A stretch of 58,564 nucleotides of DNA, the filler included, from Dugesia japonica (Eukaryota), in NCBI GenBank assembly GCA_001938525.1. It is 3 parts of 3 records of this genome, joined end to end, with 100 filler letters (N's around TTAATTAATTAA, not from the genome) between each part and the next. Parts side by side here need not be neighbours in the genome. Positions count along the whole stretch, not along the records: positions 14,220 to 44,358 come from MQRL01594519.1; 2 more parts are not named here. The stretch is one strand, 5' to 3'. A program made the position numbers and the translations under genes. Below are positions 17,553-27,946 of this stretch, piece by piece; the first letter of the stretch is position 1, and every line of letters starts with the position of its first letter. The notes under the pieces are model-generated. The model made no database searches and was not told the DNA's origin. It was given only the letters and a program-made list of their open reading frames with translations.

Positions 17553-17598
17553 TTACCACAAATTAGGCAACATGATTTCAGATGGTAGTTATTACGTA
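17553..17598 (-). mobile_element. Distal stub of the Gypsy gag interrupted by Polinton B, including the left TSD copy TACGTA (17593-17598)
   Basis: Reverse complement tacgtaataactaccatctgaaatcatgttgcctaatttgtggtaa matches 49993-50038 with three substitutions. Confidence 0.9.
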
Positions 17599-17802
17599 AG
17601 TAATAGTAATTAGTACGAATTTCGCCGAGACCGTAAGGCTACAAAATAGTGCAAATGATAAGAGAATACCAGTACAATAGAATTCAAGACCAGTACAACA
17701 GATTTGAGAATTAAAAGAAACCAAGGCTTGTGCTTTTTGGCTTGTGTTTTTGGCTTGTGGGCTTGTGGGCTTTTGGGTTCGCAATAAAAATATCAGTGCA
17801 CA
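17599..17802 (+). repeat. Left TIR of Polinton B
   Basis: agtaatagtaattagtacg..ccgtaaggctacaaaatagtgcaaatgataagagaatacca..aataaaaatatcagtgcaca matches the reverse complement of 26709-26945. Confidence 0.93.
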
Positions 17803-18459
17803 TTTAGTAAAAAAGTCTCGGCTAAACTCGTTCTAATCACTATTACTCATATATTGGAGTTTTGATTTTTATTATTATTTTTCTTTAGAAAAAAAATGGA
17901 AGAGTTTATTGAAGATATAAAACAAGATCTAAAATTTATGTATAATATAAAACAAGATTATATTTAAGTTATGACATCTACACCAAAAGAACAAAATTTA
18001 ATTTTAAAAGAAGTTTATTCAAAATTTAAATTATTTGAAGAATGTATAATTATAGCAGGAAATACAATTTATGATTTAGTAATTGAAGATGAAACTTTAA
18101 AAGAAGAATTAGAAAAGGTAGATAAAAAATAATGAAGAAACAATAAATAAATTAACCGCTTTTAAGAAAATATAAGAAGATAATAATAAAAAGAATAAAA
18201 TAATAAATGCTATTAAAAAATCAAATAACAAAACAAAACAATTACTTCAATAAAATTATAATAGAAAATGACCGTAGAAATCAATACAAAAGAAATAAAT
18301 AGTTTTAAAAAAAATGTTGATAATTTAAATAAAAAATGTGAACATCAAATCAATGTAATTATATGTTTTACAATTAGATTTTGTATAATTATTATTAGTA
18401 TTCCATATTTAAAAATTCCGTTATTTTAAATTTACTTATATAATACCTTATTTTCAACG

Positions 18460-18648
18460 TTGTTAAATAAATCTCAAAAGATTGGTTTAGCAGCTAAATA
18501 TCAAGAACTTATTTTTAAAGATCTAAATTTAAAAGATTCTATTATTGCTAAAGAAATGGGAATAAGTGTTCGAACATTAAATAAAAATTTAAGAGAATTA
18601 AATTTGAAACCTGAGAAAAAGATATTCTGGAGTAAAATATTCTTTTGA
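18460..18648 (+). pseudogene. Small HTH-like DNA-binding ORF of Polinton B
   Basis: DSIIAKEMGISVRTLNKNLREL is a typical helix-turn-helix pattern. Confidence 0.55.
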
Positions 18649-19004
18649 TGAAAAGTCACAACAATATATCAAAAATAGTTATGGGGATTATATTTTTAAT
18701 GTTAAAACAAATTCTTTTGAAATTTTAGAAATTCTTACAAAAGAAATAATTTAGCATTATCAAAATCAAAAAGTAACACAAAACAAGTATTCAAAAAAAA
18801 TCAATAAGTAAACAATCAAGAAAAATAAATAATAATGAAAGTGGTGGGATATATTTAGATGGTGAAGTAGATAATGAATTAAATAAAGCATTAAATTTCA
18901 ATTCGAGAAAGTTAGGTAAAACATATACCAAATATAAACAATAAATATAAGTAACCCTCTTTAAAGCATGTGGAATCTATCCGACTAAATTATTTATAGT
19001 AAAA

Positions 19005-25212: not shown

Positions 25213-25689
25213 TTTTATTTAATAAAAATTAAGTATAATCAGAAATTATTATATCATCAAGGGAATGTTCTATTTTAATTTTTCTGCACTACCTTTCATA
25301 TAAGGTTTATTTAGCTTATTTAATACTAAATTTAATATACTTATACTATATAGATCTATATTAGTAAAATTAAAATTTATGAAATAGTTGATTAATATTT
25401 TATAAACTTCATCTACTATTTCAGATGGCATGTTTATATATTTATCTCTAACACTATCTACAATTATCCACCTCAAAAACCATTATAGTGGATTGGTTAT
25501 GTTTTTTCTTTTTTTAAAATTTTTGTTGTTGCTTGTTTTTTTTCTTTTTAATTCTTGTTTTTATTTCTTCTTTATCAATTTTAATTAATGAGTCCCATTT
25601 CAAGGCTTCTTTTAAAGTACCTTTTAAAATAAATTGAAAAGAGTTATTAACCATTATTATCAATTTATTAAATTAAAATTTATAAAACA

Positions 25690-26470
25690 GTTTTCTGATG
25701 TTCATTACTATAAAATCTACCTAGAATCTTTTTATTTTGTAAATCAGTAATTCCATAAGTAAAAGGTTTCGCTTAATAAACTTGGGTTATTACAAATATT
25801 TCATTAGTCCATTTAGCTGTAAAACCTTTTTCAAATTTATATTTAAAGATTCTAACTCGATCACTAATTTTAAATTTTTCTCTTTTAAATCATCATTTGC
25901 GTGATTATATTGATTTATTATTTCTTTTATTTTATCTGGATTATCACTTACATCTTTTGGAGTGTTTTTATAGAAAATTGTATTATTATAATCATTTACA
26001 ATTTTATCTAACAAGTTTTTATTCCATTTTTGATTTCCAACTAATGTAAAATATTTCCACATTTTAGTTTTTAAAGTTCTAATAAATCTTTCAGCAAAAA
26101 CCGATTTACCTTCATTTTCAGTATAATACAAATTAATATTATTTTCCTTAAGAAATTTATCAAAATATTTTGATCGAATTGCTGACTCTTTGTCAAACCA
26201 AATATAACTTGGAATTATATTATTTTCTTCAAATATATTTTCATAAGCTTCTCTTAATGATTCCTGATTTTTATTAATCATTGGAATATAAAAACCAAAT
26301 CTAGAATATAAATCAATACAAACTAAAATATAACGAAAACTTTCAACAGATTTTTTAACCATATCAATAATATCAAAACCCCAAGTATTATCTTTTTCGT
26401 TTATTATTACTTTTAGGAAATGTTTCGGTTTTCTATAATTTTTATGTAATTCGTTTGATTTGGAAACCAA
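25690..26470 (-). pseudogene. Polinton rve (c-integrase)
   Basis: WGFDIIDM, YILVCIDLYSR, WFDKES, AERFIRTLK; after a frameshift it continues FKISDRVRI..FEKGFTAKWTNEIF..GRFY. Confidence 0.93.
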
Positions 26471-26708
26471 TTATTTTTCAAAGTTATTTTGTCTTTATGA
26501 GCATCCGCTGCACCAAATTATAATGTAAATTTAAAATATAACATTAAATTACAAATTTCTAATGTATTTGTAGATTGTAAAGATTGAAAAACAATATCTC
26601 CAGAAGACATTAAATAAATAATTGATCCAGATGAAGGTGAAATTCTTAAAACATCATTTTTTTTAGAAGAAAGTGATGAAAATTAATATTATTATCAATA
26701 TTAAGTTT

Positions 26709-26945
26709 TGTGCACTGATATTTTTATTAAGAAACCATAAACCAAAAATACAAGCCAAAAAACACAACCCTTAATTTTTTTTATCCTCAAGTCTGTTTTA
26801 CAAGTATTGAATTATGTTGTACTGATAATGATTACACTTTTTTCCTATGTAATCACTACTTAATTTCTGTTGTATTGGTATTCTTTTATCATTTGCACTA
26901 TTTTAGCCTTACGGCCTTGGCTAAATCGTACTAATCACTATTACT
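26709..26945 (-). repeat. Right TIR of Polinton B
   Basis: Reverse complement of 17599-17802 with substitutions and an extra segment of roughly 40 bp containing a gattaca/tgtaatc hairpin. Confidence 0.93.
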
Positions 26946-27946
26946 TACGTATGTGACCCATCAGGCCACAGCAAAAACATGAGCTTTTTTGATTGTTCTT
27001 CTTTTAGCGAAGGAAGTTTTTTTGATCTATTGTACAATTTCCTAGCAATAAACTTCATGGAAACTGTTGGCGCATTTCTAAATTGACTTTCTCTACTATT
27101 TTTGGAATCATTAAAAACTTAAGCAATTGATATTGTTTTTTCAATTTCATTGTTTCTAGGTTTATAATAGTTAGAATCTTTTTAATCAGTTTTCTTAATT
27201 CTCGGATTGTAACTTTCAGCTGACACTTCTGAGTAAGTCAATTTATTTATCTGAGACCCACCAAAATTTTCATCGTTTTTCTCAAAATTTTCAGTCAACT
27301 TTGTCATATCATCCAGCTTAATTTCTGGTTTAAGAGCAAATGATTTTATTAGGTCTTCGGAAACAATTTGTTTCTTGATTATTTGCTAACAGTCAATCTT
27401 GATTCAAATATTTCTCTGACTGATCTTAAAACTCTTAACTCAAAATTTTCGAAACGTTCATTTTCTTTTTGTCGAATTCCACTACATTCTTCAATAATTC
27501 GGAGAAATGACTTTTCTTTTATAAATTTTTCTTTAAACCATTCTCTAGCCATTTTATTATTAACATTCTGCCGGCTTTTAAATACTTGCCACAGGTATTT
27601 TGTATCACCGTCTAATAAAAAAATCAAAGGTTGATAATAAATTAAAACTGTTTGATTCTGCAAAAACTGAAATTTCATTTAACTTTTTTGCTGAGTCTTC
27701 GTCATAATTCCCAGAAAATGTCGTAATTTTAGGAGTTAATAATTCCTTAGACTCTTAAGGCAAAGCTGCGTAAATTCTTCTGTCTTTGGTTTCCTGGTTT
27801 CGAGTAATTGAGTTCAGCTGGGCTGAATCGCCAGTTAAATCAAAAGTCTTAATTTCCATAACAAGTTTATTTAATAAGTTCAAAATATAACTGAATATTA
27901 AAAAACAATATTTAAACAAATATTCAGTTTCTTTAAATATTCAACT
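26946..27946 (-). mobile_element. 5' part of a Ty3/Gypsy element (LTR 27833-27946, PBS, gag up to the zinc knuckle); host of Polinton B
   Basis: Closely similar to 48984-49998 in reverse orientation; ORF 27379-27678 is gag; LTR ends AGTT/AACT and is followed by tggcgattcagccc. Confidence 0.92.

What the first reader, a model, noticed from the sequence alone, without database searches (positions are those of the whole stretch)
17553..27946. Polinton integrated into the gag zinc knuckle of a Gypsy retrotransposon, with the empty site in the same window
Seen: the element 17599-26945 has AGT/ACT ends, long TIRs and TACGTA on both sides. Removing it plus one TACGTA rejoins gatgggtcaca-TACGTA-ataactaccatctgaaatcatg on the minus strand, which aligns with the uninterrupted paralog gatgggtcaca-TAGGTA-ataactgccatctgaaatcatg at 49982-50020 (CX2CX4HX4C knuckle). 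Established: Polintons make 6-bp TSDs with their rve integrase. Inference: this is a base-resolved integration of a virus-like element into a retrotransposon, which orders the events and hints at use of other TEs as landing sites.
Basis: partly seen in the sequence, partly recalled or inferred. Interest (0 to 1): 0.75.

Follow-up and report, generated by a model that had tools for sequence, protein, structure and literature searches.

The report
Decayed Polinton nested inside Gypsy retrotransposon
A broken virus-like DNA transposon (a Polinton) sits inside the gag gene of an older retrotransposon copy with a 6-base duplication at its edges, likely an ordinary chance insertion in a repeat-rich stretch of an animal genome, although its left end carries an unexplained third, inward-facing copy of the element's tip.

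Summary
Element 17599-26945 has AGT/ACT ends, terminal inverted repeats and TACGTA on both sides. Each flank, aligned separately, meets in register on one TAGGTA in the CCHC knuckle of a full-length Gypsy paralog at 48984-54109. The 6-mer is therefore a target duplication and the Polinton came after the Gypsy copy.

The element is a defective Polinton. It has a frameshifted rve integrase, a packaging ATPase and a pPolB whose catalytic core is missing where a 1.16-kb repeat element sits; no capsid or protease genes were found. The interrupted Gypsy keeps only its 5' LTR and gag, plus 40 bp beyond the site.

Targeting of other transposons is unsupported. This is one event, at least 15% of the rest of the window is LTR-element DNA, and other nestings lie nearby.

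No genome or read support was available. Verdict: real and mostly ordinary.

The parts
17553..17592 (-). Gypsy gag, last 40 bp kept beyond the insertion site; similarity to the paralog stops here
   Evidence: 43/46 including the site versus 49993-50038; nothing further left matches the paralog's pol or 3' LTR
17593..17598 (.). Target-site duplication, left copy (TACGTA, palindrome)
17599..17899 (+). Left TIR: clear to 17802, weak similarity to the right arm up to the first ATG at about 17897
   Evidence: the inner stretch is reached by only 2.7% of control pieces
17815..17847 (-). Third, inward-facing copy of the terminal 33 bp; closes a 249-bp self-complementary unit 17599-17847; absent from the right TIR
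   Evidence: 29/33 to the left tip, 28 of 31 aligned columns to the right tip; chance mean 0.04 per window; fold z -3.67
17897..18990 (+). Short decayed ORFs of the left arm, one weakly HTH-like
   Evidence: HTH_36 E 0.005, under cut-off
19000..21420 (+). Protein-primed PolB, N-terminal and exonuclease part with an endonuclease-VII-like insert; several frameshifts and stops; ends just after the GIRGG motif. The start is approximate
   Evidence: profile positions 99-768, best iE 2e-22; tblastn of 10 long homologs; Endonuclease_7 E 3e-4, under cut-off
21430..22589 (.). Nested 1,160-bp non-coding element with about 85-bp inverted arms and internal 31-bp repeats, lying where the PolB palm is missing
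   Evidence: arms 87%; period-31 array; only a 4-bp off-register direct repeat
22929..23330 (+). PolB C-terminal part; the end is approximate
   Evidence: profile positions 1096-1197, iE 1e-11
23445..23628 (.). 101-bp tandem repeat between the converging gene blocks; an ORF from the right stops at its edge; candidate place where the capsid module was lost (inferred)
23970..24245 (-). Small hydrophobic ORF, pX/core-protein-like (lead only)
   Evidence: Atlas 0.88-0.89, one cluster with Adeno_PX in 19% of members
24443..25218 (-). A32/FtsK-like packaging ATPase in pieces
   Evidence: profile iE 1e-10 and 1e-8; Pox_A32 E 0.006
25686..26470 (-). rve integrase, core open, one frameshift in the C-terminal part
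   Evidence: PF00665 E 4e-8, above cut-off; 68% to P0001; frame change
26655..26945 (-). Right TIR (clear from 26709); has 53 bp the left arm lacks and lacks the inner tip copy
26946..26951 (.). Target-site duplication, right copy (TACGTA)
26952..27832 (-). Gypsy PBS and gag up to the zinc knuckle, decayed
27833..27946 (-). Gypsy 5' LTR (AGTT...AACT)
   Evidence: 106/112 to the paralog's 3' LTR
48984..54109 (+). Full-length decayed Gypsy paralog without the Polinton: LTRs 48984-49096 and 53998-54109, ATCTT on both sides, order gag-RT-RNaseH-integrase; the site is present once at 49993-49998
   Evidence: LTRs 102/110; TSD; Pfam; RT closest to Ty3 in the PDB

Best explanation
This is a decayed Polinton/Maverick lying in the gag zinc knuckle of a Gypsy retrotransposon copy between two copies of the same 6 bases, and it likely got there by one ordinary, untargeted integrase reaction. 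Shown: the ends, the duplication, the register against the paralog, relic integrase, ATPase and pPolB genes, and the missing polymerase core and capsid module. Inferred from established retroviral-type integrase chemistry: a free linear copy with integrase on its two AGT tips attacked the two strands 6 nt apart at the palindrome TACGTA, and gap repair duplicated those 6 bases. Inferred: afterwards both elements decayed neutrally. Frameshifts accumulated, a 1.16-kb repeat element came to lie where the polymerase palm was lost, the capsid and protease genes were lost (before or after insertion, not resolved), and the Gypsy lost everything more than 40 bp past the site. The third tip is most likely a native feature of the family's roughly 300-bp TIR that the right arm later lost (my odds about 55%), or a template-switch copy gained in the left arm (about 30%).
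For: Junctions and register. Chance levels. Genes. IMG/VR relatives found with the integrase carry ATPase, PolB and a PF21738 capsid, placing it among Polintons. A 6-bp TSD with AGT/ACT ends is the Maverick norm, and 96% of vertebrate copies are defective (PMC8097293, passages and section 7). Target motifs of TIR and LTR elements are palindromic (PMC3276498, passages). Mavirus-like elements showed no sequence-specific integration, and 18 of 29 sites lay near repeats (PMC8547959, passages). Ages are old and overlapping: TIR arms 10% (5-19), Gypsy copies 11% (9-13), paralog LTRs 8 of 110.
Against: Only one copy was examined: no genome is held and no other copy of the termini was found (0 hits in viral contigs). 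The paralog has TAGGTA, not TACGTA, so a one-base difference in the target before insertion must be assumed. The end motif is AGTAAT, not the (AGT)2 reported for vertebrates. The 6 bases next to the inner tip (CATATA) keep the pyrimidine-purine pattern of the site, a pattern met by 452 of 57,335 window 6-mers (0.8%, post hoc); this slightly favours a link between the termini and such 6-mers. Junctions rest on the assembly alone.
Confidence: 0.85

Rival explanations
1. The family prefers other transposons, or Gypsy gag, as landing sites, for example through a chromatin-reading integrase.
For: One insertion in Gypsy gag. Some relatives' integrases carry a chromodomain (PF00385 on some hits; L006). 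Non-random nesting is known for plant LTR elements (PMC6911290, abstract).
Against: n = 1, against a background of at least 15% LTR DNA in the window. The closest integrase homolog ends without a chromodomain and this gene ends at the same place. Five paper searches (listings, then passages) gave only the reverse nesting, retrotransposons inside Polinton-like elements.
Confidence: 0.06
2. The family is naturally capsid-less (about 9 kb of integrase, PolB and ATPase) and moved as a transposon or with a helper's capsid, so the missing module is not decay of this copy.
For: No trace of MCP, minor capsid or protease. Both TIRs and the TSD are kept. A separate capsid/protease remnant of another Polinton lies 7.5 kb away.
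Against: It keeps a packaging ATPase and a pX-like ORF, which serve virions. An ORF stops at the edge of a 101-bp repeat where the module could have been. The copy has other large losses. Relatives carry the capsid gene (4 loci with PF21738).
Confidence: 0.2
3. TACGTA is part of the terminal inverted repeat and there is no target duplication.
For: It is a palindrome, so it extends the TIR seamlessly. The inner tip is followed by a 6-mer of the same pyrimidine-purine pattern.
Against: It would need a clean 6-bp loss from the target that happens to match the tip at 5 of 6 bases; only 2 of 921 gag 6-mers do. Without the 6-mer the ends are AGT/ACT, as in known Mavericks.
Confidence: 0.04
4. The two ends are real, but the interior is an assembly mosaic of several copies, so the missing modules and the third tip are artefacts.
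For: This is a repeat family in a gapped assembly (33 N runs in the window), and no read support was obtained.
Against: There is no N inside 17553-27946. TIR arms differ by 10%, so copies are old and easy to tell apart. The inner tip differs from both outer tips.
Confidence: 0.07

Closest known systems
Polinton/Maverick elements of animals (PMC8097293; bioRxiv 10.1101/2023.08.22.554363)
   Same: TIRs, AGT...ACT ends, 6-bp TSD, rve integrase, pPolB and packaging ATPase, gene blocks converging from the two ends, decayed state.
   Different: 9.3 kb (8.2 kb without the nested element) against 12.7-24.6 kb for intact vertebrate copies. No MCP, minor capsid or protease; polymerase palm missing; end motif AGTAAT instead of (AGT)2; an inner inverted copy of the tip in the left TIR.
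Adintoviruses with PLA2X (PMC8502044, passages)
   Same: Relatives found by the integrase carry PLA2-like, PF21738 capsid and A32 ATPase genes. The closest integrase has a PLA2-like N-terminus, and a pX-like ORF is a lead here.
   Different: This copy has no virion module and no PLA2 domain was detected. Alpha or Beta class was not tested by a tree.
Nested retrotransposon / Polinton-like composites (Ngaro in EMALEs, PMC8547959; retroelements in cryptophyte PLVs, PMC12220804; gypsy replacing polB, bioRxiv 10.1101/2025.02.07.637071)
   Same: Mutual nesting of a Polinton-type element and a retrotransposon.
   Different: In those cases the retrotransposon is inside the virus-like element; here it is the reverse, and no preference is shown.
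Ty3/Gypsy LTR retrotransposons without env
   Same: Short LTRs, PBS and purine tract, one CCHC knuckle, RT-RNaseH-integrase order, RT closest to Ty3, 5-bp TSD.
   Different: Both copies are decayed. The clade within Gypsy was not determined.

Membership tests
Polinton/Maverick (defective copy) | Retrovirus-like rve integrase | tested here: met
   PF00665 above cut-off; 195 homologs, best 68%
Polinton/Maverick (defective copy) | Protein-primed family B polymerase gene | tested here: met
   As a relic: profile positions 99-768 and 1096-1197 found, 769-1095 not; 2 of 10 long homologs pass PF03175
Polinton/Maverick (defective copy) | Long terminal inverted repeats | tested here: met
Polinton/Maverick (defective copy) | 6-bp target-site duplication | tested here: met
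   one copy only
Polinton/Maverick (defective copy) | Reported end motifs (AGT)2 or (AG)3 | tested here: inconclusive
   All three tips read AGTAATAGT: AGT start met, exact (AGT)2 not; the motif list is for vertebrates
Polinton/Maverick (defective copy) | Packaging ATPase | tested here: met
   in pieces
Intact Maverick / adintovirus | Major and minor capsid genes | tested here: not met
   No Pfam hit; profiles from 4 relatives each give best iE 0.47 and 0.25. Caveat: the MCP profile also missed the capsid pieces at 7.5-8.8 kb, but no unassigned stretch exceeds about 1.1 kb
Intact Maverick / adintovirus | Maturation protease | tested here: not met
   No hit inside the element; the same profile finds 7104-7379 at iE 3e-12. 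The 'protease' label comes from recalled motifs and gene position, not Pfam
Intact Maverick / adintovirus | Intact ORFs and size of about 13-25 kb | tested here: not met
   9,347 bp, many stops and frameshifts
Intact Maverick / adintovirus | Free linear DNA or virions | not testable with these tools
   none
Ty3/Gypsy | Two LTRs with TSD | tested here: met
   Paralog. The interrupted copy has the 5' LTR only
Ty3/Gypsy | RT-RNaseH-integrase order | tested here: met
Ty3/Gypsy | RT groups with Ty3/Gypsy | tested here: met
   Best PDB hits 4ol8 and Ty3-G Gag-Pol 7q5b, E 9e-14 and 3e-13; no tree built
Ty3/Gypsy | CCHC knuckle in gag | tested here: met
   Paralog; the interrupted copy has Tyr at the last Cys position
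Ty3/Gypsy | tRNA primer identity | not tested
   A PBS-like TGGC tract follows both 5' LTRs; the tRNA was not identified

The most novel reading that the evidence does not exclude
In this family each terminal repeat is itself a closed unit of about 250 bp with two integrase- and primer-ready tips facing each other. Each end could then fold its own replication panhandle and bud off MITE-like mini-Polintons, and the 9-kb element would be a capsid-less composite that moved between two such units.
Probability: 0.2. Interest if true: 0.6.

Novelty: new member of a known kind. Interest (0 to 1): 0.32.

Why it matters
As it stands, this is a clean, base-resolved Polinton junction in an invertebrate lineage with no close relatives in the databases searched (best integrase 68%; PolB N-terminal part about 25-51% over short stretches). 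It fixes the ends and TSD length for one more family and orders two old insertions, which is useful annotation but not a surprise. It would matter more if the inner tip proved to be a family trait. That would give a testable handle on how Polinton ends start protein-primed replication and on whether Polintons spawn miniature non-autonomous elements; I did not find either described in two searches (listings only). Targeting of retrotransposons would also matter, but nothing here points to it.

Tried and rejected
Whole genome: none is held, so copy number, other TSDs and flank enrichment could not be tested.

Public runs: 7 of 12 listed runs from 3 studies hold 0.19-0.29 of the words of 17400-27390 and none holds half.

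Searches for other copies or close relatives: the terminal 19-mer gave 0 hits in viral contigs. The integrase as a single query in viral contigs gave 0 relatives among 9 stretches, and a PolB homolog gave none. Metagenome contigs gave 3 short loci of 324 stretches, 28-40% identical, without ends. No TIR match was found in loci L001-L017.

Rest of the interrupted Gypsy: not in the window by tblastn, or by word-7 blastn of the left 17.6 kb.

Nested 1.16-kb element: no convincing TSD and no Rfam match in 16400-24000.

249-bp unit as an independent insertion with its own TSD: rejected; the 6-mers agree at 3 of 6 and what follows resembles the right TIR, not Gypsy.

The 6.5-10 kb capsid remnant as the missing part of this element: not supported; it lies outside both TSD copies and has no tip motif near it.

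PDB sequence searches for the integrase and the protease piece were uninformative. Host lineage could not be resolved below 'animal' (RuvBL1 83-87% to many invertebrates). Earlier scan notes: four look-ups, nothing relevant. The founding Polinton papers (2006, 2007) and Repbase reports were not read, and no supplements were read; end structures or target preferences described there could bear on novelty.
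Full report
1. Observation. The coordinates are right. TACGTA stands at 17593-17598 and 26946-26951; between them 9,347 bp begin AGTAATAG and end CTATTACT, with no N. The outer TIR arms agree at 78 of 87 aligned sites and similarity runs on, with indels, to about 17802/26709. I aligned each flank separately to the paralog. The right flank (26945-27958, minus strand) is 85.7% identical to 48974-49999; the left flank matches 49993-50038 at 43 of 46 bases. Both cover paralog bases 49993-49998, TAGGTA, in the CX2CX4HX4C knuckle, and each stops matching on entering the element. 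The site is a palindrome, so it could pass as TIR; the paralog decides against that, since only 2 of 921 gag 6-mers come within one mismatch of it. Two identical 6-mers by chance: 6e-4.

2. The host element. The paralog is a full-length, decayed Gypsy at 48984-54109. Its LTRs of 113 and 112 bp are identical at 102 of 110 sites, with ATCTT on both sides. RT, RNase H and integrase follow in Gypsy order, and the RT is closest to Ty3 among solved structures. It differs from the interrupted copy at 105 of 976 sites, so it is a family member, not the empty allele. The interrupted copy keeps its 5' LTR (27833-27946), gag, and 40 bp beyond the site; neither tblastn over the window nor word-7 blastn over the left 17.6 kb finds the rest. 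The host is an animal (RuvBL1 83-87% to many invertebrates); I could not narrow it further.

3. The inserted element. On the minus strand from the right lie an rve integrase (PF00665 above cut-off; best homolog 68%; one frameshift), a packaging ATPase in pieces (iE 1e-10 and 1e-8) and a pX-like ORF (lead only). On the plus strand from the left lie short ORFs and a protein-primed PolB. A profile from 7 ORFs of IMG/VR relatives finds positions 99-768 at 19427-21388 and 1096-1197 at 22929-23228. The 327 positions between, which in long homologs hold the polymerase motifs (motif patterns recalled), are missing. A non-coding 1,160-bp element with 85-bp inverted arms sits there. No capsid, minor capsid or protease was found, although 4 of the relatives' loci scanned carry a PF21738 capsid (52 of 143 ORFs scanned). 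The protease profile works elsewhere in the window (7104-7379, iE 3e-12); the capsid profile does not reach the capsid pieces there, so it is not sensitive to all capsid groups. Still, no unassigned stretch exceeds about 1.1 kb against 1.24 kb for the relatives' capsid gene. The 'protease' and 'minor capsid' labels on relatives' ORFs are mine, from position and recalled motifs. It is a defective Polinton.

4. A scan with the terminal 19-mer finds three copies, not two (chance mean 0.04). The third is at 17815-17847, facing the left tip: 29 of 33 identical to it and 28 of 31 aligned columns identical to the right tip, as close as the two outer tips are to each other (27 of 31). It closes a 249-bp unit that folds at -32.5 kcal/mol, z -3.67 against dinucleotide shuffles. 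The right arm has no such copy. Two signs suggest the structure predates this insertion. The stretch inward of the third tip resembles terminal positions 41-62 (0.4% of control pieces score as well) and is shared with the right arm. The arms also resume a weak match after the third tip, up to the first ATG (2.7% of controls). The arms differ by other indels too (53 bp only on the right, 17 bp only on the left). I therefore favour a native TIR of about 300 bp with an inner tip lost from the right arm (about 55%) over a template-switch gain on the left (about 30%). Against a tidy reading: the six bases beside the inner tip, CATATA, keep the pyrimidine-purine pattern of the target site, which 452 of 57,335 window 6-mers do (post hoc). 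A second Polinton remnant with capsid and protease pieces lies at about 6.5-10 kb, outside the duplication.

5. Mechanism. Shown: ends, duplication, register, gene relics, losses. Inferred from established integrase chemistry (own knowledge; 6-bp TSDs for rve integrases stated in PMC12220804, passages): a linear copy was joined by its integrase to two strands 6 nt apart, and repair duplicated the site. A palindromic site fits the general rule for TIR and LTR elements (PMC3276498, passages); 2.7% of window 6-mers are palindromes, so one case is suggestive only. On age, TIR arms differ by 10% (95% interval 5-19), the two Gypsy copies by 11% (9-13) and the paralog's LTRs by 8 of 110 sites: all old and not separable in time. 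The order, Gypsy then Polinton, follows from the nesting.

6. Targeting. This is one event. LTR-element remains are 7,223 of the 48,132 other called bases (15%), and all TE remains I labelled are 23%, both lower bounds. Other nestings are in view. For mavirus-like elements no sequence specificity was found and 18 of 29 sites lay near repeats (PMC8547959, passages). Nesting is common among LTR elements (PMC6911290, abstract). Five searches turned up only retrotransposons inside Polinton-like elements. I put targeting at about 6%.

7. Comparison. It meets the core definition of a Polinton (pPolB and integrase 'by definition', PMC5499653, abstract start in the listing; TIRs and 6-bp TSD, PMC8097293) as a relic. 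It fails the test for an intact Maverick or adintovirus (capsid, protease, size). The end reads AGTAAT rather than the vertebrate (AGT)2. Papers seen: PMC8097293 (passages, section 7); bioRxiv 2023.08.22.554363, PMC12220804, PMC8547959, PMC8502044, PMC6431247, PMC11161782, PMC3276498 and bioRxiv 2022.07.12.499685 (passages); bioRxiv 2025.02.07.637071 (passages, section 12); PMC6911290 (abstract and outline). No supplements were read. An inner inverted tip in Polinton TIRs did not appear in two searches (listings only), which is weak evidence of novelty.

8. Limits and verdict. No genome is held, no sister copy was found, and there is no read support, so every family-level statement rests on one copy. 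The finding is real and well resolved but ordinary in kind: a new member of a known class, interest 0.32. The one lead worth a follow-up is the third tip (probability 0.2 of being a functional family trait, interest 0.6 if so).

Noticed in passing
window about 6530-10060, minus strand: Remnant of a second Polinton: protease-like piece 7104-7379 (iE 3e-12), capsid pieces 7502-8810 (Atlas 0.97, PF21738 in 40% of the top cluster but low recognition), and a piece 6855-7070 matching a relative's ORF (E 9e-6). It has the module the focal element lacks; no ends were found.
   Followed up: partly
window 15466-16540, plus strand: Gag with two CCHC-like knuckles and a protease-like LLDTGA motif of another LTR element, cut off at about 16541. 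Read by eye; no Pfam hit.
   Followed up: partly
window 16541-17552: Unidentified non-coding stretch with 29-31-bp tandem repeats, abutting the point where the interrupted Gypsy is truncated.
   Followed up: partly
window about 51660-52520: Insert of about 0.8 kb splitting the RNase H domain of the paralog Gypsy (profile positions 5-38 and 59-96 lie about 870 bp apart).
   Followed up: partly
window 48984-48987, 54106-54109 and 17599, 26945: Both the Gypsy LTRs (AGTT...AACT) and the Polinton (AGT...ACT) end in AGT/ACT rather than TG/CA; probably coincidence of two related integrases.
   Followed up: no
window 20560-20700: Endonuclease-VII/HNH-like insert in the PolB, also hit in 4 of 10 long homologs (2 above cut-off). 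A preprint describes an HNH insert as unique to nematode and oomycete pPolB2; whether it is the same insert was not tested.
   Followed up: partly
window 42843-44087 (minus) and 41121-42418 (plus): Host genes: RuvB-like 1 (83-87% to invertebrates) and a tyrosinase-domain gene whose domain continues in a second frame.
   Followed up: partly
window 28676-28999 and 56459-56788: hAT transposase dimerisation-domain fragments.
   Followed up: no
window 793-1095, 11798-12117: Tandem arrays of period about 59 and 31.
   Followed up: no
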